From the NCBI RefSeq assembly GCF_053078305.1, contig NZ_CP166879.1: 64,000 bases of DNA. One strand, written 5' to 3'. The position numbers were made by a program, and so were the translations under genes. The notes under the pieces are model-generated. The model was not told the DNA's origin and ran no database searches. It saw nothing but the letters and a program-made list of their open reading frames with translations. Shown here in pieces: positions 16,911 to 64,000 of the stretch (position 1 is its first letter; each line of letters begins with the position of its first letter).

Positions 16911-16946
16911 ATCAATAAAAAAGGCCCCCCGATTTGGGAGGCCTTA
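16911..16946 (-). terminator. pheA attenuator (leader terminator)
   Basis: AAGGCCCCCCGATTTGGGAGGCCTT GC-rich hairpin with a U-run on the minus strand, between pheL and pheA. Confidence 0.85.
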
Positions 16947-16991
16947 TTGTTCGTCTTCGCATTCTGTTTCACACGACGAAACGCCTCCCAT

Positions 16992-17039
16992 TCAGGGGAA
17001 GGTAAAAAAGAATGCGAAGAAAAACGGTGTGTGTTTCAT
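16992..17039 (-). CDS. pheL: pheA leader peptide, 15 aa MKHTPFFFAFFFTFP (below the ORF-track size cutoff)
   Basis: Minus-strand ATGAAACACACACCGTTTTTCTTCGCATTCTTTTTTACCTTCCCCTGA; seven Phe codons in 15. Confidence 0.9.
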   Translation of the reverse strand: MKHTPFFFAFFFTFP

Positions 17040-17142
17040 GTTTGTTTCCTTAAGTGACTTTAGTACAGTACCCGTACTGTTTTCACGCTGTCAACAAAAA
17101 ACGCGCCCGAAGGCGCGTTGGCGATACACTCAATATAAAGGA

Positions 17143-20335: not shown

Positions 20336-20395
20336 CCTAAAGAATCAAGACGATCCGGTACGCGTGATTTTCTTTTCACATTAATCTGGTCAATA

Positions 20396-20427
20396 ACCTT
20401 GAATAATTGAGGGATGACCTCATTTAA
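20396..20427 (+). promoter_or_regulatory. sigma32 heat-shock promoter of clpB
   Basis: CCTTGAATAA (-35), 13-bp spacer, CCTCATTTA (-10), about 40 bp upstream of the clpB start. Confidence 0.75.
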
Positions 20428-20464
20428 TCTCCAGTAGCAACTTTGATCCGTTATGGGAGGAGTT

Positions 20465-23481: not shown

Positions 23482-25023
<1,542 letters not shown>

Positions 25024-25108
25024 CCTTAAAGAAGCGTACTTTGCAGTGCTCACACAGATTGTCTGATAGAAAGTGAAAAGCAAGGCGTCTTGCGAAGCAG
25101 ACTGATAC

Positions 25109-25184
25109 GTCCCCTTCGTCTAGAGGCCCAGGACACCGCCCTTTCACGGCGGTAACAGGGGTTCGAATCCCCTAGGGGACGCCA
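25109..25184 (+). tRNA. gltW: tRNA-Glu (UUC) in the 16S-23S spacer
   Basis: GTCCCCTTCGTCTAGAGGCCCAGGACACCGCCCTTTCACGGCGGTAACAGGGGTTCGAATCCCCTAGGGGACGCCA, 76 nt with CCA end. Confidence 0.97.
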
Positions 25185-25377
25185 CTTGCTGGTTTGTGAG
25201 TGAAAGTCACCTGCCTTAATATCTCAAAACTCATCTTCGGGTGATGTTTGAGATATTTGCTCTTTAAAAATCTGGATCAAGCTGAAAATTGAAACACTGA
25301 ACAACGAGAGTTGTTCGTGAGTCTCTCAAATTTTCGCAACACGATGATGAATCGAAAGAAACATCTTCGGGTTGTGA

Positions 25378-28280
<2,903 letters not shown>

Positions 28281-28373
28281 ACAACGCCGAAGATGTTTTG
28301 GCGGATTGAGAGAAGATTTTCAGCCTGATACAGATTAAATCAGAACGCAGAAGCGGTCTGATAAAACAGAATT

Positions 28374-28493
28374 TGCCTGGCGGCCTTAGCGCGGTGGTCC
28401 CACCTGAACCCATGCCGAACTCAGAAGTGAAACGCCGTAGCGCCGATGGTAGTGTGGGGTCTCCCCATGCGAGAGTAGGGAACTGCCAGGCAT
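28374..28493 (+). rRNA. rrfG: 5S ribosomal RNA
   Basis: TGCCTGGCGGCC...GGGAACTGCCAGGCAT, 120 nt. Confidence 0.97.
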
Positions 28494-45630: not shown

Positions 45631-46586
45631 TGAAGCAACTTTGGTTTGCCATGTCATTAGTGACAGGTAGCCTGTTATTCTCTGCTAACGCCTCGGCCAC
45701 TCCCGCGTCCGGGGCGTTATTACAGCAGATGAACCTGGCCAGTCAGTCACTGAATTACGAGCTGTCATTCATCAGCATCAATAAACAGGGTGTTGAGTCT
45801 CTGCGTTATCGACATGCACGCCTCGATAACCGTCCTCTTGCACAATTGTTGCAAATGGATGGCCCGCGCCGGGAAGTGGTACAGCGCGGCAATGAAATCA
45901 GCTATTTTGAACCGGGCCTTGAACCGTTTACTCTTAATGGCGATTACATTGTTGATTCTCTGCCATCGCTCATCTATACCGATTTCAAACGCCTTTCTCC
46001 TTACTACGACTTTATCTCCGTCGGGCGCACGCGTATTGCTGATCGTCTTTGTGAAGTTATTCGCGTGGTTGCTCGTGATGGCACACGCTACAGCTACATC
46101 GTGTGGATGGACACCGAATCGAAATTACCGATGCGGGTTGATCTTCTTGATCGCGATGGTGAAACGCTGGAACAATTTCGCGTGATTGCTTTTAACGTCA
46201 ATCAGGATATCAGCAGCAGTATGCAGACGCTGGCGAAGGCAAATTTGCCGCCGTTGCTTTCTGTTCCTGTAGGTGAAAAAGCTAAATTCAGCTGGACGCC
46301 AACCTGGTTGCCACAGGGTTTTAGCGAAGTTTCCAGTAGTCGACGTCCGCTACCGACGATGGACAACATGCCTATCGAATCACGTCTCTATTCCGACGGA
46401 TTATTCAGCTTCTCGGTAAACGTTAACCGCGCTACGCCATCGAGCACCGATCAGATGTTGCGCACCGGACGCAGAACCGTCAGTACAAGCGTACGTGATA
46501 ACGCTGAAATCACCATTGTCGGTGAACTGCCGCCGCAAACGGCGAAACGCATTGCCGAGAATATTAAGTTCGGGGCAGCGCAATGA
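45630..46586 (+). CDS. rseB: SigmaE regulatory protein RseB
   Basis: 318-aa ORF with signal peptide. Confidence 0.95.
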   Translation: MKQLWFAMSLVTGSLLFSANASATPASGALLQQMNLASQSLNYELSFISINKQGVESLRYRHARLDNRPLAQLLQMDGPRREVVQRGNEISYFEPGLEPFTLNGDYIVDSLPSLIYTDFKRLSPYYDFISVGRTRIADRLCEVIRVVARDGTRYSYIVWMDTESKLPMRVDLLDRDGETLEQFRVIAFNVNQDISSSMQTLAKANLPPLLSVPVGEKAKFSWTPTWLPQGFSEVSSSRRPLPTMDNMPIESRLYSDGLFSFSVNVNRATPSSTDQMLRTGRRTVSTSVRDNAEITIVGELPPQTAKRIAENIKFGAAQ

Positions 46587-47062
46587 TCAAAGAGTGGGCT
46601 ACCGTCGTCTCCTGGCAAAACGGGCAGGCGCTGGTCAGTTGTGATGTTAAAGCCTCATGCAGCAGCTGCGCTTCACGCGCCGGTTGCGGTAGCCGCGTGT
46701 TGAATAAACTTGGCCCGCAAACCACGCATACCATTGTCGTACCCTGTGATGAGCCGTTAGTGCCGGGGCAAAAAGTGGAATTGGGGATCGCCGAAGGCAG
46801 CCTGCTTAGCTCCGCATTACTGGTTTATATGTCGCCGCTGGTGGGATTATTCCTCATCGCTTCGCTATTTCAGCTACTCTTTGCTTCTGACGTCGCAGCA
46901 TTATGTGGTGCGGTCCTCGGCGGTATTGGCGGGTTCCTGATTGCGCGTGGCTACTCGCGTAAGTTTGCTGCCCGGGCAGAATGGCAACCGATCATCTTAA
47001 GCGTGGCATTGCCGCCTGGCCTTGTGCGATTTGAAACATCTTCGGAAGACGCGAGCCAGTGA
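46583..47062 (+). CDS. rseC: SigmaE regulatory protein RseC
   Basis: 159-aa ORF overlapping the rseB stop. Confidence 0.93.
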   Translation: MIKEWATVVSWQNGQALVSCDVKASCSSCASRAGCGSRVLNKLGPQTTHTIVVPCDEPLVPGQKVELGIAEGSLLSSALLVYMSPLVGLFLIASLFQLLFASDVAALCGAVLGGIGGFLIARGYSRKFAARAEWQPIILSVALPPGLVRFETSSEDASQ

Positions 47063-47259
47063 TTTCACTGGCTTTGTTGCATTTTGCATAACAAATGCGA
47101 GGACGTTTCCAGATACCACAATCCATACGGTATGAACATTTCCTCGCCTCAATGTTGTAGTGTAGAATGCGGCGTTTCTATTAATACAGACGTTAAGCTC
47201 AGAACAGCGACTTCTAAAAGCCTGGTTAACCGGGCATTAAGGCACAATAATCATACTTT

Positions 47260-49059
<1,800 letters not shown>

Positions 49060-50101: not shown

Positions 50102-50291
50102 ATGAGATAAATCTCCCGTGGCTAACGACATCCCCCGTCGTTGTGTATAGAATATTCCCCCGAAGTTTAAGGTTGGCACCTCCAGGTTGCCACGGCACAC
50201 GAAACAGCGTTGGTCCCCATATACCGCTAAACTGAAACTGCAGCGAAGCAGTTAGCAGAGCCATGTATATCAGGTCTGTTTCGTGTGCTGA

Positions 50292-51904
<1,613 letters not shown>

Positions 51905-52655: not shown

Positions 52656-53387
52656 ATGGCTGAATTACTGTTAGGCGTCAACATTGACCATATCGCTACG
52701 CTGCGCAACGCGCGCGGTACCGCTTACCCGGATCCGGTGCAGGCCGCGTTTATTGCCGAGCAGGCGGGGGCGGACGGCATTACCGTGCATTTACGTGAAG
52801 ATCGCCGCCACATTACTGACCGCGATGTGCGCATCCTGCGTCAGACGCTGGATACCCGCATGAATCTGGAGATGGCGGTGACCGAAGAGATGCTGGCGAT
52901 CGCGGTTGAGACGAAGCCGCATTTTTGCTGCCTGGTACCAGAAAAGCGTCAGGAAGTAACAACCGAAGGCGGCCTGGACGTTGCAGGGCAGCGTGAAAAA
53001 ATGCGCAATGCCTGCAAACGTCTGGCGGATGCCGGGATTCAGGTTTCTCTGTTTATCGACGCCGATGAAGAGCAGATCAAAGCTGCGGCAGAGGTTGGCG
53101 CACCGTTTATCGAGATCCACACCGGTTGCTATGCTGATGCCAAAACTGACGCCGAACAGGCGCAAGAGCTGGCGCGTATCGCCAAAGCCGCGACCTTTGC
53201 CGCTAGTCTCGGTTTGAAAGTTAACGCCGGACACGGTCTGACCTATCACAACGTAAAAGCCATTGCCGCCATCCCTGAGATGCACGAACTGAATATCGGT
53301 CATGCCATTATTGGTCGTGCAGTGATGACCGGACTGAAAGATGCGGTGGCAGAAATGAAGCGCCTGATGCTGGAAGCGCGTGGCTAA
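52656..53387 (+). CDS. pdxJ: Pyridoxine 5-prime-phosphate synthase
   Basis: [28 protein letters not shown]...; 243 aa from the internal ATG. Confidence 0.95.
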
Positions 53388-53767
53388 TGGCAATATTAGG
53401 TTTAGGCACGGATATCGTCGAGATCGCTCGCATAGAAGCAGTGATCGCCCGATCCGGTGAGCGCCTGGCACGCCGCGTATTAAGCGATAACGAATGGGAA
53501 ATTTGGAAAACGCACCACCAGCCGGTGCGTTTTCTGGCGAAACGCTTTGCCGTAAAAGAAGCCGCAGCAAAAGCGTTTGGCACCGGGATCCGCAATGGTC
53601 TGGCGTTTAATCAGTTTGAAGTATTTAACGATGAGCTTGGTAAGCCACGGCTGCGACTGTGGGGCGAGGCATTAAAACTGGCGGAAAAGCTGGGCGTTGC
53701 AAATATGCATGTGACGCTGGCCGATGAGCGCCACTATGCTTGCGCCACGGTAATTATTGAAAGTTAA
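53387..53767 (+). CDS. acpS: Holo-[acyl-carrier-protein] synthase
   Basis: 126-aa [39 protein letters not shown]... Confidence 0.96.
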
Positions 53768-53791
53768 AAATAATACCGTTCTCTTTAAAAA

Positions 53792-53835
53792 GTAAAACCC
53801 CCGAACTGGTAAGGAACGGGGGTTTTACTTTGTAA
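53792..53835 (+). terminator. acpS operon terminator
   Basis: GTAAAACCCCCG...CGGGGGTTTTAC hairpin followed by TTTGTAACTTT. Confidence 0.8.
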
Positions 53836-53844
53836 CTTTAATTT

Positions 53845-53868
53845 AGTGCAGCACGCACCCTCAACAAC
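53845..53868. repeat. 24-nt element, copy 1 of an imperfect direct repeat (second copy at 54093-54116)
   Basis: AGTGCAGCACGCACCCTCAACAAC; contains the internal palindrome GTGC...GCAC. Confidence 0.6.
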
Positions 53869-54092
53869 AGCGATTATGGATCAGGGTAGTTATCTTTTAC
53901 AAGCAACTTGCAATCTTTATCATAAAAACTCGAGCCTTTACGAAGAAAGCGATATTGATGGCAAGATTAACGTGACCGCCAATTCGTAAGTACATTAAAA
54001 TTGGTTTCGTTATTGGCGATTTTGCTGTGCTTTACACCATGCCACAGAATTCCCCCATTGAAACGAGTGGTGTCGTCAAAGCTCTGGTGTGG

Positions 54093-54116
54093 AGTGCAGC
54101 ATGCACCCTCAATAAC
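54093..54116. repeat. 24-nt element, copy 2 of the direct repeat, in the shoB upstream region
   Basis: AGTGCAGCATGCACCCTCAATAAC; 22 of 24 positions identical to copy 1. Confidence 0.6.
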
Positions 54117-54187
54117 TCGCACGTTCAGTTTTGGGGAGATGTAAGGGCTAATCTGAACGGCTGCATTCCTTGTTTAAGGAAAAACGA

Positions 54188-54268
54188 ATGACTGATTGCC
54201 GATACCTTATTAAACGGGCCATCAAAATCATCATTGCTGTTTTACAGCTGATCCTTCTGTTCTTATAA
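54188..54268 (+). CDS. shoB: Type I toxin ShoB, 26-aa hydrophobic peptide (below the ORF-track size cutoff)
   Basis: ATGACTGATTGCCGATACCTTATTAAACGG... translates to MTDCRYLIKRAIKIIIAVLQLILLFL; in the acpS-yfhL interval where shoB/ohsC lies in K-12. Confidence 0.85.
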   Translation: MTDCRYLIKRAIKIIIAVLQLILLFL

Positions 54269-54285
54269 CACAAGGAAACGTACTT

Positions 54286-54322
54286 AAGGTGCGTCCGGTG
54301 AACCAGTCGGACGCACCTTTAA
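54286..54322 (+). terminator. Putative shoB transcript terminator or stabilising hairpin
   Basis: AAGGTGCGTCCGGTGAACCAGTCGGACGCACCTT hairpin followed by a short T/A tract. Confidence 0.55.
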
Positions 54323-54462
54323 TAACTATAAATAAGTGTCTGGGCAGATACTATATAAATTAACTTAGTGAATGTTTATGCTAATAATCATCAATTAAAT
54401 AAATATAATAGCGTTAAGGTTTCCCTATAAAATAATTAATACTCTACTTCAGGAGCAGAATA

Positions 54463-54732
<270 letters not shown>

Positions 54733-54937
54733 TTACCGTTAAATTATTTTAAAATCAGTAAGTTGTATCGAGTTTGTATGCTTTACAGTTATTAACTTAC
54801 TGTATGTTGATCCAGTGTATTTAACCTTGATAAACTCAGTCCAGCAACACAAAACCGCAACACATTGCATTTTGTCCCGTAGAAAAGACTTGTATGTGTG
54901 AGCTTGTTTTCTGCGCCTACGCAGATAAGGATTGAGA

Positions 54938-56335
54938 ATGCCGCGCACTGTAACACATAATCCGGATAGCCCCAATAATGACGATGTTTTAGCCGCATCT
55001 GAAAAATGGGACGCCTGTAAACCCCCCTATACCAGCGCACACATAAAAATCTGTGTTGCTGCCGCCAAAATCATCCTCGCAGCTTCCGGCGTGGCTCGCC
55101 GTTCCAAATACGAAAAAGAGAACTATCTCCGTATCGATTTCAGCAAAGCCGGTAAGGTTACATTTTACGCCGAGTTTCCAAAAAAGATGGGCCTCAAGGG
55201 TAAAAAGCTCGGCGAGTGGCCGGAGCTCGCTATCCAGCTGGCGCGCGAAAAAGCGCTAGGTATGGCTGACTGTGGCTTGCGGGCAGAGTCCGTACATGCA
55301 GCGCTGGAAATGTACCGGGATGACCTCAAAGCCAAAGTCGCCCGGCAGAAGCTGAGCCCGGACAGTTTCACAACCTACGGGGTGCGTATCGACCGGATTA
55401 AAGCAACGTTCGGCGAGCGTGAGGTGTTCAGCGACGTAACATACAATCGGCTAGTGGAAGTGCTGGACGAGTGGATCGCCACTCGCTCGAACAATAACGC
55501 CCTGGAGTTGTTTGCCGAGCTCCGTCGGTTCTGGAAGTTCTGCGCACCTACTCTTTGTAACGGTCGCAATGTTGCTGCCAGTCTGCCAGATGATTATGTT
55601 TCCTCCCGCGTACAGAAACCCACCCCCACACGGCTTTTTACCGATATTGAGTCAATCGCCCGGCTCTGGCTCAATGTTGCCGCCTGCACCTCTGTACACC
55701 AGAAGAATGCTGTTCGCTTCATGATCATCACCGGCGTTCGTCCGATTAATGTCCATAACCTGCGCTGGGACTACGTTCACGAGGAGACTGGCGAAATTGT
55801 TTATCCTGAAGGGGTTATCGGCATGCGAGGGGCTATGAAAACACAAAAGGCTTTCCGCCTGCCAATAACGCCGGAGATCCGGCGGATTATCGACGAGCAG
55901 AAAGCATGGCGTGATTCAGTTCCTGAGTGCAACAGGGATTATGTATTTTTGCAGCCGCGTGATCCAATGCAGCCATTTTCAAAACGATCACTGGATAAGC
56001 TAGTGAAAACATACAGCCCGGATGGGGCTGTAAAAGGATTAAAACATGATGGGACTGTTAAAGGGAAAGACGGTGCATTTAATACGATGTGCCGTAAATT
56101 CCTTAAGAGCAATGTTATTGCCTTGATGAAGGAAAGAGGCTATTCCCGATCAGACCGAAGGGAAATCAGCCTCCTTTGCCTTCACCACTCCAGCAAGTCA
56201 GATGACCCGATGGCAGAACATTACGACTTTTCTGATGAGATTTTGCAGGAAGAGATTGCGTTAAAGCGCGAAGCTTTCGAGGCTCACGAGCGGAGCATAC
56301 TTGCGCAGGTGGCATTGCTACGGCGGCGAGGTTAA
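54938..56335 (+). CDS. Putative site-specific integrase (tyrosine recombinase-like, P4-type N-terminal domain)
   Basis: About 465-aa ORF at the island edge, convergent with an AlpA-like gene; N-terminal region resembles integrase arm-binding domains; start codon uncertain (TTG at 54932 or ATG at 54938). Confidence 0.6.
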   Translation: MPRTVTHNPDSPNNDDVLAASEKWDACKPPYTSAHIKICVAAAKIILAASGVARRSKYEKENYLRIDFSKAGKVTFYAEFPKKMGLKGKKLGEWPELAIQLAREKALGMADCGLRAESVHAALEMYRDDLKAKVARQKLSPDSFTTYGVRIDRIKATFGEREVFSDVTYNRLVEVLDEWIATRSNNNALELFAELRRFWKFCAPTLCNGRNVAASLPDDYVSSRVQKPTPTRLFTDIESIARLWLNVAACTSVHQKNAVRFMIITGVRPINVHNLRWDYVHEETGEIVYPEGVIGMRGAMKTQKAFRLPITPEIRRIIDEQKAWRDSVPECNRDYVFLQPRDPMQPFSKRSLDKLVKTYSPDGAVKGLKHDGTVKGKDGAFNTMCRKFLKSNVIALMKERGYSRSDRREISLLCLHHSSKSDDPMAEHYDFSDEILQEEIALKREAFEAHERSILAQVALLRRRG

Positions 56336-56532
56336 TACCGGCTGCGACACTTTTGAATAAAAGCGTCGACATTGCGGCGCTCATAACGAACTACTTTTGC
56401 ACTGAAACGAATTGGTGCCAGGATAGCCCGATGACGATGCTTAATATTCCACTCACATAGCGTTTTCTGTGTAATACCTAACTTTTGGCATACTTCATCC
56501 GGGGTGAGTAAATCGTCGGGTTTCTCGCTCAT
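56332..56532 (-). CDS. AlpA/excisionase-family small DNA-binding protein
   Basis: 66-aa ORF LLTPDEVCQKLGITQKTLCEWN with HTH-like pattern; overlaps the upstream helicase stop by 4 nt. Confidence 0.6.
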   Translation of the reverse strand: MSEKPDDLLTPDEVCQKLGITQKTLCEWNIKHRHRAILAPIRFSAKVVRYERRNVDAFIQKCRSRY

Positions 56533-57923
56533 GCTATACCTCTCTTTTTCATGGCATCGAGCAGGATGTCCTGCACTGTTCGTTTTGAGTTGCGCCGCTC
56601 CATCACCATTTCGTCCATAGTGTCGGCAGCAATAATGTGGTGAATAAATACCGGACGATTGTGTCCGGCTTGTATCTGCCTGGTGGGGCCGATACGTTCA
56701 ATAATTTGCTGATATTGCTCCAGGTCCCACCAGTGTGAGAAAAATACCAGTATATTTCCGCCGTCTTGCATGTTCAGGCCGTGGCCCGCGCTGGCTGGGT
56801 GTGCAAAGAGAACAGGAATCTTTCCGGAATTCCAGTCGCGCAGTGTCTGTGGATCCTGGTCGAGGTGACGACCGCGAGGGAATGCTTTAAGCAAGCGTTC
56901 AAGATCGTGTTTCCAGTGATAAGCAACCAGCACAGGTGCGCCAGCTGCTTCGGCCAGTATGCTGTCCAGCGCCTGTAGTTTGGTGTCATGCAGTTCTGAC
57001 CAACTTCCGGTGTCGTCTGTGTATACTGCGCCACTGGCGATTTGAAGACACTTCAGTGTCTTTGCCGCGGCGTTCGGTGCTTCGATGCCTTCGCCATTCA
57101 GCTCGAGGAACATTTCCTTTTCCATTTCACGATACTGCTGACGGGCCTTCGGGGGCATATCCACGCGGATTACGTTATGGATGGGGTCTTTGATATCGAA
57201 CCAGTCGGCCGCATCCAGCGAGAGGGTCACATCGGCTAACGCTCGCTGTATTTCACCCTGTGAGTGAGCAAAAGGCTCCAGTTTGGTCCAGCTCTGCCCC
57301 GGAAACTGTATCGATTTGAACCAGCGTGAGGTAAATGCGCCGTAAGTGCGCCCGAGACGTTGCCCCAGGTCCACAAACCACGATTGTCCCCACAAATCTA
57401 CCAGGCCGTTCGGTGCTGGCGTACCGGTGAGATTTATCCAGCGCCGGACATACTTGTGCGCCACTTTGCCCAGCGCCGCCGCGCGCTTACCACCACCTCG
57501 CAGCCGGAAGGATTTTAGCCGGGTGCTTTCATCTGGAATGACAGTACCGAACGGCCATCGTTCTCCCAATTCCTCAACCAGCCAGACAAGGTTATCGTAG
57601 TTGATGGTGAACACGCTCGCGTTGTTGTTCGCCAACGCTGCAGAGCGCGCTTTGGCATTACCAACAATTGGTTGTACCTCGATATTGCGCAAATGCCCCC
57701 ACTTCAGTGCTTCATCCGGCCAGGTGTTTGCTGCAACGCGTAGCGGCGCGAGGACCAGCGCGGGGCGTGTTTCTGCTCCAGCCATGAAAAGATCTTCCAG
57801 CGTGGTGAGTGTCGCTACGGTTTTACCCATCCCCATCCCTGCCCAGATGTTGCCGCGCAGAATGTCGGTTTGGTGATTGATTATGAGGTTTTGATAAAGT
57901 CGGGGGTGGAATATGTTATTCAT
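56529..57923 (-). CDS. Phage-type SNF2/DEAD-like helicase
   Basis: Walker A GMGMGKT, motif II DEST, C-terminal helicase domain; start placed at the Met of MNNIFHPRLYQ (ORF track extends to 57998). Confidence 0.8.
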   Translation of the reverse strand: MNNIFHPRLYQNLIINHQTDILRGNIWAGMGMGKTVATLTTLEDLFMAGAETRPALVLAPLRVAANTWPDEALKWGHLRNIEVQPIVGNAKARSAALANNNASVFTINYDNLVWLVEELGERWPFGTVIPDESTRLKSFRLRGGGKRAAALGKVAHKYVRRWINLTGTPAPNGLVDLWGQSWFVDLGQRLGRTYGAFTSRWFKSIQFPGQSWTKLEPFAHSQGEIQRALADVTLSLDAADWFDIKDPIHNVIRVDMPPKARQQYREMEKEMFLELNGEGIEAPNAAAKTLKCLQIASGAVYTDDTGSWSELHDTKLQALDSILAEAAGAPVLVAYHWKHDLERLLKAFPRGRHLDQDPQTLRDWNSGKIPVLFAHPASAGHGLNMQDGGNILVFFSHWWDLEQYQQIIERIGPTRQIQAGHNRPVFIHHIIAADTMDEMVMERRNSKRTVQDILLDAMKKRGIA

Positions 57924-57985
57924 TAATACACCTATGGTAGAATATGTGTCAATTCTCTCTCTATATATAACTAACGGAGGCGGGT

Positions 57986-58783
57986 ATGCCCCTGGCAAAA
58001 ATACTTACAAAACAAGTTTCTTTATTAACTGTTTTTTCAGCGTTAGCTTATGTGATGGCATATTCTTTTCAGAAAGGTGTTGCATCGTATTATGGCTATC
58101 CAGCCCTTTTTATTAAAATAGATTTAAATACGCTATTGTATTCGGCTGTATGGCTTTTGTTTTTTAGTTTTTTATTTCTCGGTGCCTTATACGCGACATT
58201 GATGTTTGATTTGAAAGGGAAATATTATGTTCCATTTATTATATTTATAGTGGTTATGCTAATACCTAATTTTTACATAATAGGATTCCATTGGCCTTTT
58301 GGTTATTTCTCAGAAACCTCTGTGATGAGTGTTGGAGATATTTTATTATTTGCTCTGCTTTTGTTGAATTACCACAATGCGGTGTCCGCGTCAATCCATA
58401 GTAAGAGACACGAACATCATATGGATAGCATTAGAAAATTTGGGAGGCTTGCAGAGTATAAAGACGTATTTTATTATATCGATTTAAAAATCCTAAAATC
58501 AGCTTTTCCTTTAGGGGTGATGACATTATTGATATTGAGCTATACCTTCGGGAAGGTTACTGCATTTAAAAATAACGAATATTATATGGTAGATGGTAGT
58601 AATACTAAAGTGTTGCTCAATTCATTTGGTAGTGGTTTTGTTGTTGGTGATTGTGAGTCCAATAGCGCAAAATTTGAATTTGTTAATGATTTAAAAGGGA
58701 TGAAATTCACAGTCATGTCCTCTAAAAAGGAAATAGCTAAATTAAAAGAGTGTTTCGAAACACGTGTTAAAAATACGGATTAA
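57986..58783 (+). CDS. Hypothetical polytopic membrane protein (265 aa), AT-rich cargo gene
   Basis: GGAGG 7 bp upstream of the ATG; about five predicted hydrophobic helices plus a roughly 70-aa hydrophilic C-terminus; divergent from the helicase; no family recognised. Confidence 0.65.
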   Translation: MPLAKILTKQVSLLTVFSALAYVMAYSFQKGVASYYGYPALFIKIDLNTLLYSAVWLLFFSFLFLGALYATLMFDLKGKYYVPFIIFIVVMLIPNFYIIGFHWPFGYFSETSVMSVGDILLFALLLLNYHNAVSASIHSKRHEHHMDSIRKFGRLAEYKDVFYYIDLKILKSAFPLGVMTLLILSYTFGKVTAFKNNEYYMVDGSNTKVLLNSFGSGFVVGDCESNSAKFEFVNDLKGMKFTVMSSKKEIAKLKECFETRVKNTD

Positions 58784-58795
58784 AGTATAAGTCTT

Positions 58796-59083
58796 TTATC
58801 TTTTATTGCGGCTTAAAATAATTTCCTCCAGATTTTTGCTATCCAGCACCACCACGGTAAAGCCCAGCTCGCGCAGCCGCTTGTGCTCGCGCAACTGGTC
58901 GGCGCGTGGTGCTTTGCCGGGTGCTTTGCATTCAACGAAAACAAGACGGCCGCCGGGTAGCAGAACAATGCGATCCGGTACCGAGCGGCGACCAGGTGAT
59001 ATGAACTTAAAGGCGACCCCACCAGCCTTTTTCACTTCGGCGACGAGATGCTTCTCGATTAGGTTTTCACGTTCATATATCAT
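58796..59083 (-). CDS. VRR-NUC domain nuclease
   Basis: 95-aa ORF with PDRIVLLPGGRLVFVECKAPGKAPRADQLREHKRL, matching the VRR-NUC pattern of PD...(D/E)xK with a conserved Q. Confidence 0.8.
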   Translation of the reverse strand: MIYERENLIEKHLVAEVKKAGGVAFKFISPGRRSVPDRIVLLPGGRLVFVECKAPGKAPRADQLREHKRLRELGFTVVVLDSKNLEEIILSRNKR

Positions 59084-59125
59084 ATGACGTTTCCTTTAGC
59101 CCTCTAGTTTGAGGGCTGGGAATCT

Positions 59126-59677
59126 TTAGCGACGGCTGGGATGAATTTTTTCACGGAGAACTAAGGTTAGTTGTTCTAGTGTCAATGGCTCGCCAAAATT
59201 CTCATGAAATAATGGATTGAATACATGCATCATGCGTTCGTATGTTGCCAGCGAAGGCGTGTGAGAATTAAGATCTCTTAATTTGAATTCTTCAAATCTA
59301 TCCAGTTTATTGATGACGAAATCAGCGGCTGCAAGATACTCAGTTTCGTTATTTCCATCGAATCCTTTGAATATTGGATTTTTTCCAAATAACTCAACAT
59401 TTTCTTTTAACTTCTTTTTTTCTTCTTCTGTAAGTTCACTGTAGCTATATTCAATAACTCTCCACATATCTAGGATGTCTAGAACTTTTTTTACAACACG
59501 TGGAGTTTCGGTATTTTTAAATGGAATACCACTAAATTTCCAAGGGAGTGCCCATGTTTGGTTTTCGAATATAGCATCACGGACAAATGTGTGATCGATT
59601 TCGCCTTCAATCTCGTTTTTATCGTACAGGTCACACAGCATCATTAGAATTAGTTTTTCGCCATCTGAAAGTTGCAT
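59126..59677 (-). CDS. YfbU-family (UPF0304) protein, 183 aa, AT-rich cargo gene
   Basis: MQLSDGEKLILMMLCDLYD..., FKGFDGNNETEYL, HTPSLATYERMMHVF align with remembered E. coli YfbU motifs (AQRLILSNQYKMM, FLGFDAATEARYL, QTPMWEKYQRML). Confidence 0.65.
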   Translation of the reverse strand: MQLSDGEKLILMMLCDLYDKNEIEGEIDHTFVRDAIFENQTWALPWKFSGIPFKNTETPRVVKKVLDILDMWRVIEYSYSELTEEEKKKLKENVELFGKNPIFKGFDGNNETEYLAAADFVINKLDRFEEFKLRDLNSHTPSLATYERMMHVFNPLFHENFGEPLTLEQLTLVLREKIHPSRR

Positions 59678-59682
59678 GTTTT

Positions 59683-60192
59683 TTATCCTTGAGTGTTAAA
59701 CGTTAAATCATCAACGAGTAGATCTATGTGAGGTTGAATAGCCAATATTTTTGCATGCAAAACTCTACCTGTTCTTAACTTTTCCGCAGGAGTTTTTGCA
59801 TCTGAAAGCTCAGAAATATTTTCCCTTATTTCAGCACAAAAATTTTCTGAGTCTATGCTCAATTTTACTTTATTGTTAGGTTTTATTGCTTGGGCTGCAA
59901 ATAAATCGATGAAATCCTCTATTTCAGAAATTATTGGTTCTAAACTTATGCCTCGAACATTTTCCTCATTCGAACCAGGACCAATTGCTCTTAGAGATTT
60001 TATGGCGGTTGATAACTTTCCATGAAGGTTGCCTGCGTCCCTTATACTACGTTGATAATTGACCGTAGCTAAAGCCTTTTGAGCTTCTGTGGCGGCATCC
60101 CGCGACTTTTTCCACCCCCATAGTGAACACATAGCACCAACTATGGTAACAAAAGTACCTATCCTTGATAGCCAGACATCTGTATTTTCCAT
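59683..60192 (-). CDS. Hypothetical membrane-anchored protein (169 aa), first gene of a two-gene cassette with the YfbU-family gene
   Basis: Single N-terminal hydrophobic helix (IGTFVTIVGAMCSLWGW) then a charged helical region; 5-nt gap to the downstream ORF; AT-rich. Confidence 0.6.
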   Translation of the reverse strand: MENTDVWLSRIGTFVTIVGAMCSLWGWKKSRDAATEAQKALATVNYQRSIRDAGNLHGKLSTAIKSLRAIGPGSNEENVRGISLEPIISEIEDFIDLFAAQAIKPNNKVKLSIDSENFCAEIRENISELSDAKTPAEKLRTGRVLHAKILAIQPHIDLLVDDLTFNTQG

Positions 60193-60277
60193 TAAAGCAC
60201 CAAAAACAATCTGTTAAGGATAGCTATATGATACATATATCTTCAATGATGTCATGTATCTGATTTGTGAGCTGTGA

Positions 60278-62341
60278 TCAGTCCTTACGGTAGTGGTACG
60301 CCTCAAAACCGCCAGCGTTCAGTGGGATATCGGGCGCCCATTCGGGGTTAGTGGAGAGAAGCGCGGAAAGCGCTTTATCGTTGAAATCTTCTGTGTCAGG
60401 TGCTTCGGTGATCACCTCGTCGTGTACCGTCAGCACAATGCTGTAACCGGCATCTTCGATAAGCGGCATGTTTCCGGCCAGAACGTCGCGGGCGGCCGCT
60501 TGGGTGACGTTCTCCACCAGCTTTCCGCCGTAGGTTTTGAGTCGTTGCCATTTACGTGAATAAGAGTTAACACCCATATAGGTGATATTCCCTTTTTCGA
60601 TAATCGGAGACGGGTAGCATACAGCGCGTCCAGATGGCAGCTGTATGCGCAGCCACGCGCCATCACGTCGGATTTTAAGATAGCCGCAATACAATGTTTT
60701 TTGCGGTGTGGCGATTGCAGTGCGGACGGTGCGCTCCAGTTCGTACCAGAAATCACAGGTCGCGGGATGCGCCCGGCGCCAGAGACGTTTAAGTGAGTCG
60801 CAGGCGATAAATACCCGTTCAGAAAGCCCGTAGGTTGACTTGCGTTTAACCGATTCGTCGTACCAGCTTTTCGCCTCGCGGATAACATCGCGGGGAATGT
60901 TTGGTAGTGCGGCGTTCGCCAGCTCGTCGAGATCGAGACCGTAAACCAGTGCAAAAGTGATGAAGGCCGACACACCACCACCATAACCCAGACCGAGTTC
61001 CATGACTTTACCGATCTGACGCATGTGTTTATCAACATCATCTGGTGCAATATCGAAAGCTTTTGCATACGCCAGTTTATATAAGTCCGGACCCGTTCCG
61101 GCGTCGTACTCTCTGAATGCATTCAGTTTCCATTCTTCTCCCGCCAGCCATGCCAGCATACGGCCTTCAATGTTCGACAAGTCACTTACCACCAGCTTTT
61201 TGCCTGTTGGCGCGATAATGCAGCCACGTAACGCTGAACTGGTTAGTTCCATGATATTGTCAAACAGCAGGTCTGCACATCCGGCTTTCAGTGCTTCGAT
61301 GCCTTCGTCTATTTGTTCCTGTTTTAGTGAAGGGCGGGGAAGGTTCTGGGGCTGGAATAGCCGTCCGGCCCAACGACCGGTACGTGACGCCCCGCAGAAC
61401 TGTAGCGTACCGCGTAAGCGCCCGTCGTGGCTTACGCCTTTCATCAGTGCCTTGTATTTACTGGTGCTGGTAGTACTGGCCTGCAGGCGGATAGCCAGCA
61501 GTTCTTTCACGGCAGATGGTAAATCGGGGTCGGCAATACGACGTTCCAGAGTACTGCGTTGCATGTCTGGTAGCTCCACACCGTAGGATTCAACAATGTG
61601 CTTAATCAACGCGTCTCGTTGTGTGGCTGCCTGCACTTCGCCATCAGTCATTTCCTGTGTACGCTTTGCCAGGCGCTTTTGTTCCTGGTCTACCGCGTCG
61701 ATCGCAGCGCGTGCGAGTTCCACGTCCATGCAGACGCCCCGGTCATTGATCTGCTGATCACGATGCCAGAGCGCCAGTTCTGTCCCCTGATAATTCCACT
61801 TCGGCAGACGTTTATAGACTTCGCGCATTGCCTCGATATCCAGTCCGGCGTAAGCAACAAAGCGCCGCCATTCTTCCGGGTGGGTTTTGCTGGTGGCCCG
61901 GCGCAGTTTGCTGTTTTTCGGGCGTGGCTTACAGAACAGCTGGATCAGCGCTTTACCTTCTTTGTCCTTCGCTTTGTCTTGCGGGACGCCTAGTACTTCG
62001 CAGAGTTCCCCCAGAGACCCCGGGAGACCGTGCGCCAGCGCCTGCACCATTGTGTCGCGCCAACGTTCGACTGGCGGTGCCAGGCGCGGCATTGCATAAC
62101 GCAGAACGGTGCGGTCGAAGTGAGAGTTATGGAAATAAAGCAGGGTTTCAGGGTCTGCGATTGCTTCGTATAAGCCGTGTGGAATACCACCACCGGCAGT
62201 GATATCCCACACGTTTACTGGCCCGTCGTTGATAGCCCATGCGAAAAGCATCACTTCAACGCCTTCGGCATACGCATGGGTACCGTTCGTAATAGGGATT
62301 TCGCAATAGGTTTCCAGGTCGCCCCATAGTATATTGGACAT
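60278..62341 (-). CDS. Phage-type family A DNA polymerase with 3-prime-5-prime exonuclease domain
   Basis: 687-aa ORF; Exo I DLETY; pol motifs DLSNIEGR (A), [16 protein letters not shown] (B), HDEVITE (C). Confidence 0.88.
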
Positions 62342-62387
62342 GTGTTTACCTTGGTTTTTATTCTATTAACTGATTAAAAGATTAATT

Positions 62388-63017
62388 ATGCATATGATCC
62401 AATACTTGATTGACCATACAGAGCATCTGGAGAAAATAGCTGGATATATTTTTTCATGTTTGATTGTTATGGGAGTCTGGATAAGAAAGATCATTTTTAA
62501 TTATAAGTATAAAGAGCCTAAATATGTCAAGAAGTTAATTTTATATTTAGTTAAGTATGAACGTTATCTGGATGAGGAGGATAAGAGTGCCATAGAAAAA
62601 AGAATAAATGATAAAATTATTCGTGATGCGCTGAAATTGCAATCCTCTTATAACCGAAGAGATGTTATTTACATTTGCAATAGATTAGAAAAAAGACAGT
62701 ATATAAATCAGTTGATTAAGCTTCAGAATTATATAGAGAAAGATAACGGAGTGTTTTTTATTAATGTTGATTTTTCAGGTTTTTTATTTATTATTAGTCG
62801 TCTGTTTTCCTTTCTGTGTTTTGTGCTGTTTACCCTTTTTTCTATTATCTGCATTATTTCCATAGGGCAAAATGAAGGCCTTTTAAATTATCTTGTGTAT
62901 ATGGTTATGATAATAGTTTTAGAGACTGTTGGTTTTTGGATGTATGATACTTTCCCGTCTAAGAAAAAGATCTGTGAACTAAATAAAGAATTGAGAAAGA
63001 TTAAGATTCCTGAGTGA
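62388..63017 (+). CDS. Hypothetical membrane protein (209 aa), very AT-rich cargo gene
   Basis: ORF divergent from the polymerase; predicted N-terminal helix and two C-terminal hydrophobic helices; Lys/Ile/Tyr-rich; no family recognised. Confidence 0.55.
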   Translation: MHMIQYLIDHTEHLEKIAGYIFSCLIVMGVWIRKIIFNYKYKEPKYVKKLILYLVKYERYLDEEDKSAIEKRINDKIIRDALKLQSSYNRRDVIYICNRLEKRQYINQLIKLQNYIEKDNGVFFINVDFSGFLFIISRLFSFLCFVLFTLFSIICIISIGQNEGLLNYLVYMVMIIVLETVGFWMYDTFPSKKKICELNKELRKIKIPE

Positions 63018-63069
63018 TTATACGCCTAATCAGTAGCCCGGTGTTTAACCGGGCGTCTATGAAGTAGGG

Positions 63070-63618
63070 TTAAATTAGTGCTTCAGCATCAGCACCTTCG
63101 CTGATATCGTCGAAATCGTCAGCGCTTGCCACTCCGCCGCCAGCGAATGCATCGCCGTCTCGCAGGAACTGGACTCCGCCGAGTGAGGCATTAATGCGTT
63201 TACCGAAATTATTGTCCTGTGCCCAGATATCGATAACGGCGTTTACATAGCACCCTGCATAGGGACGTCCGTCAGCCTGAATAAGTGGCGAACGATCGCG
63301 ATCAAGAACAGCTGGGCGCGCTTTGTTAGCAGCATTCAGGAAGAAATTACCGGGGAAGCCTTCATACTCTGCTTTTTCATCACCATCATGCAGGCACAGA
63401 TTGAGTTTTTTCTCCAGCTGGTTATAAATGGGCTCCCACTTCTCTCCCCATTTTTCCTTCGCTACCTGCTTCATAGCTTTACGGATTTCTTCCAGTTGTG
63501 GGTGTTTGGGAGACATTAAAAATACTGCGGAGAAACGCGGATCGCCTTCGCCGTTTACAGTTTTAGCTTCAAACAGAGACGGGAAGGCCAGACGAACATT
63601 GTTCAGCTTCAGTTTCAT
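63070..63618 (-). CDS. DUF2815-like phage replication-module protein
   Basis: 182-aa ORF MKLKLNNVRLAFPSLFEAK... with acidic C-terminal tail; sits between a DUF2800-like gene and the polymerase as in other phages. Confidence 0.6.
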   Translation of the reverse strand: MKLKLNNVRLAFPSLFEAKTVNGEGDPRFSAVFLMSPKHPQLEEIRKAMKQVAKEKWGEKWEPIYNQLEKKLNLCLHDGDEKAEYEGFPGNFFLNAANKARPAVLDRDRSPLIQADGRPYAGCYVNAVIDIWAQDNNFGKRINASLGGVQFLRDGDAFAGGGVASADDFDDISEGADAEALI

Positions 63619-63633
63619 GGGTATTTCCTTAAA

Positions 63634-64000
63634 TCAGATGAGGTCTGCGGTTAGCGTATCGTCGGATACGTCGTCGAAATCATTTACAGGGTTGATATTG
63701 AGTGCGGGGCGTGGGTCTGACTCGGGAACGACGGTTGGTTTACCATCAGCTCGTGTTATCAGTGCCTCGACTTTTGACCAACGGCGTGGACTGGCCTTTT
63801 TGATAAGTTTTTCGGCTTTTGTGGGACTAATAAGTTTAAAGTCGAATACTTCTTCAGTTTTGTACCTGAACTGGTCCTTCAGAAGTGCGCGAGCTGCCTC
63901 TTCATCACTCCAGGCCCGGTTACCTTGTTTTCCTGTTACCAGTTTAAACCCCGGTACCGGATGTCCGGCATTGAGTTCATTGTGAACCCGGTCCCGTACT
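63634..64000 (-). CDS. C-terminal part of a DUF2800-like (PD-(D/E)xK-type) phage protein; 5-prime end lies beyond the window
   Basis: Manual translation of the minus strand gives an open frame from the window end to TGA at 63634-63636 (...GKQGNRAWSDEEAARALLKDQF...VNDFDDVSDDTLTADLI); not in the ORF track because it has no start in the window. Confidence 0.5.
   Translation of the reverse strand, partial: VRDRVHNELNAGHPVPGFKLVTGKQGNRAWSDEEAARALLKDQFRYKTEEVFDFKLISPTKAEKLIKKASPRRWSKVEALITRADGKPTVVPESDPRPALNINPVNDFDDVSDDTLTADLI

What the first reader, a model, noticed from the sequence alone, without database searches (positions are those of the whole stretch)
54188..54268. shoB type I toxin peptide gene, invisible to the ORF track
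A 26-codon ORF encoding MTDCRYLIKRAIKIIIAVLQLILLFL lies in the acpS-yfhL interval. This is the known location of the ShoB toxin, which is repressed by the divergent OhsC small RNA. OhsC itself should be encoded upstream on the opposite strand, roughly 53870-54000, but I cannot place its ends from sequence alone. The peptide differs at one position (Ala11) from the K-12 sequence as I remember it (Val).
Basis: partly seen in the sequence, partly recalled or inferred. Interest (0 to 1): 0.4.

Follow-up and report, generated by a model that had tools for sequence, protein, structure and literature searches.

The report
Known ShoB toxin and OhsC antitoxin

Summary
The 26-codon ORF at 54188-54268 (+) is real and encodes MTDCRYLIKRAIKIIIAVLQLILLFL. 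It aligns in register with K-12 shoB (b4687): 79 of 81 bases match, with one synonymous change and V11A. RefSeq annotates the same ORF as shoB in a strain whose acpS-yfhL interval is 100% identical. The interval between acpS (53387-53767) and yfhL (54463-54723, minus strand) matches K-12 at 98% of alignment columns (96.5% by BLAST in related strains).

OhsC is present, but not at 53870-54000. Rfam RF02495 scores 103 bits (cut-off 50) at 53789-53865 (-), and the K-12 ohsC annotation maps to 53787-53865 (-).

OhsC nt 1-21 pair with the shoB 5'UTR at 54093-54113, 75 nt upstream of the ATG. That is 21 bp, two of them G.U, at -42.2 kcal/mol (K-12: -41.4).

The published promoter hexamers, the Shine-Dalgarno sequence AAGGAA and both terminators are intact, so the module looks functional.

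This exact shoB DNA allele occurs in 100 of 5,426 complete E. coli genomes and in Escherichia sp. E1V33.

Side results:
- Two co-varying OhsC/target pairing types exist in E. coli.
- A prophage-like island is integrated in the 5' end of yfhL.

Verdict: already known; low interest.

The parts
53387..53767 (+). acpS (holo-ACP synthase), left flanking gene (context)
   Evidence: 126-aa ORF. Annotated as acpS in the identical region of strain XH990 and in K-12.
53787..53865 (-). OhsC antitoxin small RNA (79 nt; the 5' end at 53865 is the pairing end)
   Evidence: Rfam RF02495 scores 103.1 bits (GA 50) at 53789-53865, model positions 1-77 of 77. K-12 ohsC b4608 (L002:1521-1599) maps to 53787-53865 in alignment A1. 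Its fold is -29.7 kcal/mol, z = -4.7 against shuffles.
53785..53835 (.). Near-palindromic G+C-rich hairpin: the OhsC intrinsic terminator and probably also the acpS terminator (bidirectional)
   Evidence: Inverted repeat I1, 19-nt arms, 95% complementary, 13 nt between the arms. The sub-threshold plus-strand Rfam echo of 37.6 bits comes from this palindrome. The same palindrome is remarked on in PMC11264685. The simple terminator scan missed it because the loop exceeds 8 nt.
53873..53902 (-). ohsC promoter: -35 TTGTAA (53902-53897), 18-nt spacer, -10 CATAAT (53878-53873)
   Evidence: Promoter scan. The hexamers are identical to those listed for ohsC in PMC11264685 Table 2. The -10 ends 7 nt before the OhsC 5' end.
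53972..54001 (+). shoB promoter: -35 GTGACC (53972-53977), 18-nt spacer, -10 TAAAAT (53996-54001)
   Evidence: Promoter scan. The hexamers are identical to those listed for shoB in PMC11264685 Table 2.
54008..54187 (+). shoB 5' untranslated region (about 180 nt; the start is inferred from the -10 and was not mapped here)
   Evidence: Position relative to the -10 hexamer. Consensus fold pairs 54009-54016 with 54109-54116 and 54023-54039 with 54085-54101. Pair 54016-54109 varies as A-U/G-C/G.U across 10 haplotypes. The z-score of the fold is only -1.57.
54093..54113 (+). OhsC target site in the shoB 5'UTR, 75 nt upstream of the ATG
   Evidence: Direct repeat D1 with 53845-53868 on the plus strand, so it is complementary to OhsC. 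Explicit pairing gives 21 bp, of which 19 are Watson-Crick and 2 are G.U, at -42.2 kcal/mol.
54166..54181 (+). Anti-SD (UUCCUU, 54166-54171) : SD (AAGGAA, 54176-54181) hairpin
   Evidence: Present in the MFE, centroid and alifold structures. The RBS AAGGAA is as published. The predicted pair probabilities of the central hairpin pairs rise from about 0.8 to 0.9-0.99 when the OhsC site is blocked in the 5'-shortened RNA.
54188..54268 (+). shoB ORF: 26 codons plus stop, encoding MTDCRYLIKRAIKIIIAVLQLILLFL
   Evidence: Translation. In register with K-12 b4687, 79 of 81 nt and 25 of 26 aa identical. RefSeq CDS shoB WP_000128773.1 in identical DNA.
54281..54324 (+). shoB terminator-like hairpin (GGUGCGUCCG ... 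CGGACGCACC followed by UUUAAUAA)
   Evidence: Inverted repeat I3, 17-nt arms, 88% complementary. It forms in all folds of the mRNA. It is identical to K-12.
54463..54723 (-). yfhL (4Fe-4S ferredoxin), right flanking gene, convergent with shoB (context)
   Evidence: 86-aa ORF. Annotated as yfhL in XH990 and K-12.

Best explanation
This is the chromosomal shoB-ohsC type I toxin-antitoxin locus of Escherichia coli, intact, at its normal site between acpS and yfhL.

shoB is transcribed rightward from the GTGACC/TAAAAT promoter. The mRNA is about 320 nt with a 5'UTR of about 180 nt, and it encodes a 26-residue peptide. The N-terminus is short and charged (MTDCRYLIKRAIK). The C-terminal helix is very hydrophobic (IIIAVLQLILLFL) and is expected to insert into the inner membrane. 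The K-12 orthologue is lethal when overproduced (literature).

OhsC is a 79-nt RNA transcribed leftward from the divergent TTGTAA/CATAAT promoter. It ends in the hairpin it shares with acpS. Its first 21 nt pair with the shoB leader at 54093-54113, far upstream of the ribosome-binding site.

Most likely mechanism (inferred from the K-12 literature and from folding here):
1. In the full-length mRNA, the 5' end pairs with and hides the OhsC site, and UUCCUU pairs with the Shine-Dalgarno sequence. This form is translationally inert.
2. A 5'-processed form, about 41 nt shorter, frees the leader. The region around the OhsC site can then compete with the anti-SD and allow translation.
3. OhsC binding removes that competitor and closes the SD hairpin again.
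4. The duplex also becomes an RNase III substrate.

In this window OhsC differs from K-12 at three positions: G12, U21 and C34. G12 turns one A-U pair into G.U and U21 adds one U-A pair, so predicted pairing strength is unchanged. The peptide carries V11A, a conservative change at a position that is also Ile in other strains.
For: Identity:
- The ORF translates as stated.
- It is in register with K-12 shoB, 79 of 81 nt identical.
- RefSeq annotates shoB (WP_000128773.1) in DNA 100% identical over 711 bp.
- Synteny recO-pdxJ-acpS-[ohsC-shoB]-yfhL is preserved.
- The interval matches in 5,425 of 5,426 E. coli genomes.

OhsC:
- Rfam gives 103.1 bits against GA 50, full length.
- The K-12 annotation maps to 53787-53865.
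- The fold is stable, z = -4.7.

Expression signals:
- Both published promoter hexamer pairs and the RBS AAGGAA are present unchanged.

Pairing:
- 21 bp at -42.2 kcal/mol, against -41.4 in K-12.
- Across 16 E. coli loci the OhsC 5' end and its target change together as a mirrored block. Cognate pairs score -34 to -42 kcal/mol and non-cognate pairs -21 to -24.
- 1,671 of the 1,697 genomes that hit a type-B probe carry both type-B halves.

Leader structure:
- The consensus fold hides the target and the SD. Seven of 9 variable pairs stay paired, and one of them (54016-54109) changes on both sides.
- Blocking the target raises the predicted probability of SD closure.

Literature on the K-12 orthologue:
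- 19-nt 5'-end pairing (PMC3919570).
- The longest transcript gives no reporter activity, while a 5' end 41 nt downstream does. A dinQ-like four-element switch has been proposed (PMC5066626).
- An RNase III cleavage site lies in the duplex region (PMC6212723).
- CpxR regulates the locus (PMC9600279).
- Residues 1-10 are dispensable for toxicity but an 11-residue deletion is not tolerated (PMC12022103).
Against: - Nothing was measured in this strain: not transcription, 5' ends, translation, toxicity or repression.
- The shoB transcription start (about 54008) is inferred from the -10 hexamer only.
- The leader fold is not significantly more stable than shuffled sequence (z = -1.57; 12 of 200 shuffles fold as well).
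- The predicted SD opening in the shortened RNA is modest. The SD unpaired probability is 0.22-0.30 free and 0.08 blocked, and the anti-SD:SD pairs remain about 0.75 probable in the ensemble.
- No Pfam or NCBIfam profile exists to score the peptide (0 hits). Membership therefore rests on orthology.
- V11A lies at the edge of the minimal toxic core, since the N10 truncation is toxic and N11 is not. An effect on potency cannot be excluded.
Confidence: 0.95

Rival explanations
1. The locus is shoB-ohsC, but this haplotype is functionally shifted. It combines ShoB A11, OhsC G12/U21 and the leader 5' end GGCG. Possible consequences are an attenuated or altered toxin, or changed repression kinetics because of the central G.U pair.
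For: Residue 11 is the first residue of the minimal toxic core, since the N10 truncation is toxic and N11 is not (PMC12022103). The exact ORF allele is rare, in 100 of 5,426 genomes. Four positions in the locus are private to this haplotype in the 16-locus sample: 53832, 53845, 53920 and 53962, plus 54219, which is V11A. Pair 54016-54109 is the G.U intermediate between the A-U and G-C states.
Against: Position 11 is naturally V, A or I, all small aliphatic residues. The same ORF allele persists in about 100 E. coli genomes and in Escherichia sp. E1V33. Predicted duplex energy is unchanged or slightly better than in K-12. OhsC G12 also occurs in strains with V11. All expression signals are intact.
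Confidence: 0.12
2. The locus is a decaying, non-functional remnant of shoB-ohsC.
For: Chromosomal type I loci such as some hok/sok copies are known to decay (discussed in PMC11264685). No expression data exist for this strain.
Against: The ORF has full length and there are no frameshifts. Promoter hexamers, SD, target site and both terminators are intact. Among 16 diverse loci the ORF always has 26 codons and all replacements are aliphatic-to-aliphatic. PMC11264685 reports over 99% conservation of these elements.
Confidence: 0.03
3. The ORF is a chance open frame in an intergenic region, or the true product starts at the upstream TTG (54170) and is 32 aa long.
For: Forty-six ORFs of at least 20 aa overlap this 3-kb stretch, so short ORFs are common. 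The mechanical ORF caller extends this frame to TTG 54170.
Against: The frame is conserved across Escherichia species with a near-identical peptide. AAGGAA lies 6 nt before the ATG and would fall inside the TTG-started ORF. Curators annotate the ATG start in both K-12 and RefSeq.
Confidence: 0.01

Closest known systems
shoB-ohsC of E. coli K-12 MG1655 (b4687 / b4608; formerly ryfB / ryfC)
   Same: Same chromosomal site, orientation, promoter hexamers, SD, terminators and leader. 98% of alignment columns are identical across the acpS-yfhL interval. The peptide matches at 25 of 26 residues. OhsC is the same length with the same 5'-end pairing.
   Different: V11A in the peptide. OhsC has A12G (a central A-U becomes G.U), A21U (adds a U-A pair) and A34C. 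Positions 54016-54017 in the leader are GC instead of AA.
Type-B shoB-ohsC alleles (E. coli O157:H7, O55:H7 and about 31% of complete E. coli genomes)
   Same: Same locus, same architecture and near-identical peptide.
   Different: A block of about 8 nt in the OhsC 5' end (GGAAUCGUG versus AGGGUGC[A/G]) and the mirrored block in the target (CUCGAUUC versus UGCACCCU) are swapped together, with one internal U.U. The window is type A.
zorO-orzO / zorP-orzP (E. coli O157:H7)
   Same: A divergent small RNA whose 5' 18 nt pair with a 5'UTR of about 174-180 nt upstream of the RBS. The toxin is a small hydrophobic peptide. The full-length UTR inhibits translation and a processed form is active (PMC3919570; PMC5397157 abstract).
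   Different: Unrelated sequences, a 29-aa toxin and a different locus. Wild-type OhsC does not repress zorO.
tisB-istR-1 and dinQ-agrB (E. coli)
   Same: A divergent antitoxin with about 20 nt of pairing in a long leader. The primary transcript is inert and a 5'-processed form is active. RNase III cleaves the duplex. A dinQ-like four-element switch has been explicitly proposed for shoB (PMC5066626; PMC6212723).
   Different: Those loci are LexA/SOS-controlled, and tisB uses a standby-ribosome site. shoB-ohsC is reported to be CpxR-regulated, and its switch has not been tested experimentally.

Membership tests
ShoB type I toxin (orthologue of E. coli K-12 b4687) | Sequence orthology, in register, to K-12 ShoB | tested here: met
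   79 of 81 nt and 25 of 26 aa are identical, with the same start and stop. RefSeq names the identical ORF ShoB, WP_000128773.1.
ShoB type I toxin (orthologue of E. coli K-12 b4687) | Location between acpS and yfhL, convergent with yfhL | tested here: met
   acpS 53387-53767 (+), shoB 54188-54268 (+), yfhL 54463-54723 (-). The order is the same as in K-12 and XH990.
ShoB type I toxin (orthologue of E. coli K-12 b4687) | Small peptide with a charged N-terminus and a hydrophobic C-terminal helix | tested here: met
   Read directly from the sequence MTDCRYLIKRAIK-IIIAVLQLILLFL. No structure prediction was run.
ShoB type I toxin (orthologue of E. coli K-12 b4687) | Match to a curated protein-family profile | tested here: inconclusive
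   No hits in Pfam-A or NCBIfam even at E<=1, so neither library gives a profile match that could score this 26-aa peptide either way.
ShoB type I toxin (orthologue of E. coli K-12 b4687) | Toxic on overproduction | not testable with these tools
   Known for the K-12 V11 peptide only (PMC5066626; PMC12022103). The A11 variant is untested.
OhsC antitoxin RNA (Rfam RF02495) | Covariance-model score at or above the gathering threshold, full length | tested here: met
   103.1 bits against 50, model positions 1-77 of 77, at 53789-53865 (-).
OhsC antitoxin RNA (Rfam RF02495) | Encoded divergently upstream of shoB with its own promoter and intrinsic terminator | tested here: met
   TTGTAA-18-CATAAT at 53902-53873 (-). 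The terminator hairpin has arms at 53785-53803 and 53817-53835.
OhsC antitoxin RNA (Rfam RF02495) | 5' end complementary (about 19 nt or more) to the shoB 5'UTR | tested here: met
   OhsC nt 1-21 pair with 54093-54113: 19 Watson-Crick and 2 G.U pairs, -42.2 kcal/mol.
OhsC antitoxin RNA (Rfam RF02495) | Represses ShoB synthesis | not testable with these tools
   Literature for K-12 only (cited).
Divergent, limited-pairing type I TA class (tisB/istR-1, zorO/orzO, dinQ/agrB, shoB/ohsC) | Long structured 5'UTR with the antitoxin site upstream of, not over, the RBS | tested here: met
   The leader is about 180 nt. The target ends 75 nt before the ATG, and the SD lies in its own hairpin.
Divergent, limited-pairing type I TA class (tisB/istR-1, zorO/orzO, dinQ/agrB, shoB/ohsC) | Inert primary transcript and active 5'-processed isoform | tested here: inconclusive
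   Folding is consistent with this. The 5' end hides the target, and removing about 41 nt changes the MFE so that the SD sits in a loop. However, the ensemble effect is modest and the fold z-score is -1.57. Experimental support exists only for K-12.

The most novel reading that the evidence does not exclude
The most novel reading not excluded concerns the locus across E. coli rather than this window. shoB-ohsC may exist as two mutually non-cross-reacting specificity classes. Type A includes this window and K-12. Type B covers about 31% of genomes and includes O157:H7. A block of about 8 nt in the OhsC seed and its mirror image in the shoB leader have been exchanged together. On the DNA plus strand the two sites are direct repeats 248 bp apart, so gene conversion between them could keep toxin and antitoxin matched. 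The window's haplotype (OhsC G12/U21, leader G54016, ShoB A11) would be an intermediate or variant of type A with its own repression and toxicity set-point. PMC11264685 noted high variability in the pairing region but stated that pairing sufficiency could not yet be judged.
Probability: 0.4. Interest if true: 0.3.

Novelty: already known. Interest (0 to 1): 0.1.

Why it matters
It matters little beyond correct annotation. shoB is a 26-codon gene that ORF callers with length cut-offs miss, and OhsC is a non-coding RNA, so marking both prevents the acpS-yfhL interval from being read as empty. The locus has been linked in the literature to envelope stress (CpxR) and to colistin survival. The catalogue of natural variants (A11, I11, V14/V15, L22; two pairing types) offers ready-made alleles for testing what sets toxin potency and antitoxin specificity. 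None of this is surprising to a specialist.

Tried and rejected
- Pfam-A and NCBIfam scans of the peptide gave no hits. The peptide is too short and neither library returned any match.
- The simple terminator scan found none in 53700-54500 because both hairpins have loops longer than its 8-nt limit. The inverted-repeat search and folding show them.
- RNAduplex on full-length OhsC against the whole shoB mRNA produced an unrealistic 76-nt interaction. I reran it on OhsC nt 1-24 against 54085-54120.
- A CpxR consensus scan (GTAAA-N5-GTAAA, up to 2 mismatches) gave 74 hits against 55 expected, so it is uninformative. One 1-mismatch site lies at 54021-54035 (-). The CB1/CB2 coordinates could not be recovered from the papers held.
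- The primary papers Fozo et al. 2008 (PMC2597788) and Fozo 2012 (10.4161/rna.22568) are not in the library. Their content is cited only through papers that quote them.
- Searching the PMC11264685 supplement for the A11 peptide string found nothing; the file was truncated when stored.
I rejected this because no Rfam hit to OhsC falls within 53870-54000 on either strand (the only other match reaching it is a sub-threshold chance Thr_leader hit ending at 53901), and the interval holds the two promoters.
- I considered that the Rfam plus-strand hit at 53763-53831 was a second OhsC. I rejected this because it scores 37.6 bits, below GA 50, and is the palindromic terminator read backwards.
- I considered that the one-piece hits in the type-B probe search were A/B-discordant genomes. 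The one I inspected (FCI29) is a type-B target with a 1-nt insertion.

Full report
**1. The observation**

The mechanical ORF list shows the same frame only as a 32-aa ORF starting at TTG 54170.

The ORF lies between a 126-aa ORF at 53387-53767 (+) and an 86-aa ORF at 54463-54723 (-). Public annotation of identical DNA names these acpS and yfhL.

A 26-codon ORF is not evidence by itself, because 46 ORFs of at least 20 aa overlap this 3-kb stretch. Everything therefore depends on comparison with other sequences.

**2. Identity of the ORF**

The interval 53760-54470 matches 5,425 of 5,426 complete E. coli genomes. It is 100% identical to strain XH990, where RefSeq annotates acpS, shoB (WP_000128773.1) and yfhL in this order.

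In K-12 MG1655 the order is yfhL, shoB (b4687), ohsC (b4608), acpS. A pairwise alignment of the whole acpS-yfhL interval is identical at 98% of columns. The ORF is in register with b4687, with the same start and the same stop.

Two bases differ. CTG>CTT is silent at Leu7. GTC>GCC gives V11A.

The exact 81-nt allele occurs in 100 of 5,426 genomes. It also occurs, base for base, in Escherichia sp. E1V33.

In a spread of 16 E. coli loci the ORF is always 26 codons. All replacements are aliphatic for aliphatic: V11A, V11I, I14V, I15V and I22L.

A degenerate search for the MTDCRYLIKR coding motif over one genome per GTDB species found it only in the genus Escherichia. This agrees with the published statement that ShoB is confined to E. 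coli, Shigella and close relatives (PMC2887945).

Pfam and NCBIfam returned no match for the peptide.

**3. OhsC**

Rfam's ohsC_RNA model (RF02495) matches 53789-53865 on the minus strand at 103.1 bits. The gathering score is 50, and the match is full length.

The K-12 ohsC annotation (79 nt) maps through the alignment to 53787-53865 (-).

That interval holds the divergent promoters. For ohsC these are TTGTAA-18-CATAAT at 53902-53873 (-). For shoB they are GTGACC-18-TAAAAT at 53972-54001 (+). These are the very hexamers tabulated for the locus in PMC11264685.

OhsC folds into a small 5' hairpin and a strong terminator, at -29.7 kcal/mol and z = -4.7. The terminator is nearly palindromic and sits 18 nt after the acpS stop. 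It probably terminates acpS as well. This explains the weak plus-strand echo in Rfam (37.6 bits).

**4. Pairing**

On the plus strand, 53845-53868 and 54093-54116 are direct repeats, matching at 22 of 24 positions. OhsC, which is transcribed from the minus strand, is therefore complementary to the shoB leader.

Written out, OhsC nt 1-21 pair with 54093-54113. There are 19 Watson-Crick pairs and 2 G.U pairs, at -42.2 kcal/mol.

K-12 has 19 Watson-Crick pairs plus a terminal G.U, at -41.4 kcal/mol. The window's OhsC differs by A12G, which turns a central A-U into G.U, and by A21U, which adds a U-A pair. Pairing capacity is retained.

The site ends 75 nt before the ATG, so OhsC cannot act by simple occlusion of the Shine-Dalgarno sequence.

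**5. How it most likely works**

From the literature on K-12:
- OhsC pairs through its 5' end over 19 nt (PMC3919570).
- Several shoB 5' ends exist. The longest form gives no reporter activity, while one 41 nt shorter does.
- A dinQ-like switch of four sequence elements has been proposed (PMC5066626).
- An RNase III cleavage site maps to the shoB/OhsC duplex region (PMC6212723).
- CpxR regulates both genes (PMC9600279).

Folding the window's leader from the inferred start (about 54008) gives three features:
- 54009-54016 pairs with 54109-54116.
- 54023-54039 pairs with 54085-54101. Together these two helices bury the OhsC site.
- A separate UUCCUU:AAGGAA hairpin at 54166-54181 closes the SD.

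The same structure is the alifold consensus of 10 distinct haplotypes. Seven of 9 variable pairs stay paired. One of them, 54016-54109, takes the forms A-U, G-C and G.U.

Removing about 41 nt changes the minimum-energy fold. The region 54091-54100 then pairs with 54160-54169, and the SD sits in a loop. Blocking 54093-54113, to mimic bound OhsC, raises the probability of the central anti-SD:SD pairs from about 0.8 to 0.9-0.99. It also lowers SD accessibility from 0.22-0.30 to 0.08.

These results are consistent with the switch model but weak. The leader's fold z-score is only -1.57, and the start site is not mapped.

Status of each step:
- Shown here: the parts, their integrity, and the complementarity.
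- Taken from the literature: toxicity, repression, processing and RNase III cleavage.
- Inferred: that all of these hold in this strain, and the details of the switch.

**6. V11A**

In published truncation experiments, removing residues 1-10 leaves ShoB toxic, while removing 11 abolishes activity (PMC12022103). Residue 11 therefore sits at the edge of the essential core.

The change is conservative, and the position is naturally V, A or I. The allele persists in about 100 genomes. I take it as a neutral or near-neutral polymorphism. A quantitative effect on potency is not excluded.

**7. Side result: two pairing types**

Among the 16 loci, 9 carry the K-12-like pairing block. Seven carry a different block in both partners. 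Their OhsC reads GUUGGAAUCGUGUGCUGCAC and their target reads GUGCAGCACUCGAUUCCAAU, with one internal U.U.

Cognate duplexes score -34 to -42 kcal/mol. Non-cognate duplexes score -21 to -24 kcal/mol.

I built a probe by concatenating the type-B OhsC seed and the type-B target. It hit 1,697 of 5,426 genomes, and 1,671 of those carry both halves. One single-half case that I inspected was a type-B target with a 1-nt insertion, not a mixed locus.

Linkage over 250 bp would explain co-occurrence. It would not explain the mirrored sequence change, which requires co-evolution or gene conversion between the two direct repeats.

PMC11264685 had already noted large variation in the pairing regions, so this refines known work and is not a discovery.

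**8. Comparison and verdict**

This is the known shoB-ohsC locus. Every defining feature that can be tested by sequence is met. It works like the other divergent, limited-pairing type I systems (zorO-orzO, tisB-istR-1, dinQ-agrB).

Only the placement of OhsC needs correcting. Novelty: already known. Interest: low.

Noticed in passing
window 54694-64000 (integrase 54932-56335 +; further ORFs to the window end): A prophage-like island begins inside the 5' end of yfhL. It encodes a tyrosine integrase, an HTH regulator, an SNF2 helicase, VRR-NUC, YfbU, a DNA polymerase and DUF2815 in the O55:H7 CB9615 counterpart. The window is identical to island-free strain XH990 up to 54693. Codons 1-10 of yfhL are then supplied by the element ([11 protein letters not shown] instead of MALLITKKCIN), and K-12's neighbour yfhH is absent from the rest of the window. 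Only 17 of 5,426 E. coli genomes cover at least 80% of this stretch.
   Followed up: partly
window 53845-53865 (-) and 54093-54113 (+); loci L003-L015, L022: E. coli carries two co-varying versions of the OhsC seed and its shoB target: type A as here and in K-12, and type B in O157/O55 and about 31% of genomes. The block substitution is mirrored in both partners. Predicted cross-type pairing is about 12-20 kcal/mol weaker.
   Followed up: partly
window 54016 and 54109: The pair between the 5' end of the shoB mRNA and the distal part of the OhsC target is A-U in K-12-like strains, G-C in type-B strains and G.U in this window. This is the only pair in the leader that changes on both sides.
   Followed up: yes
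Its locus is 97.5% identical overall but has a K-12-like OhsC seed with A12. This may reflect shared ancestry or recombination of the allele.
   Followed up: no
window 46547-47378 (-), 50162-50376 (+), 20346-20484 (+), 16915-17040 (-), 23482-28491 (+): Other Rfam matches above threshold place the window in the E. coli pheA-rrn-rpoE/rseC-rnc-era-recO-pdxJ-acpS region. They are AsrC (antisense to rseC), the rncO leader, RyfD, the Phe leader, and a complete rRNA operon with tRNA-Glu. All are as expected for this region.
   Followed up: no
window 54021-54035 (-): There is a one-mismatch match to the CpxR consensus GTAAA-N5-GTAAA just downstream of the inferred shoB start. The motif count in the window is near chance, and the published CB1/CB2 coordinates could not be retrieved, so its meaning is open.
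   Followed up: partly
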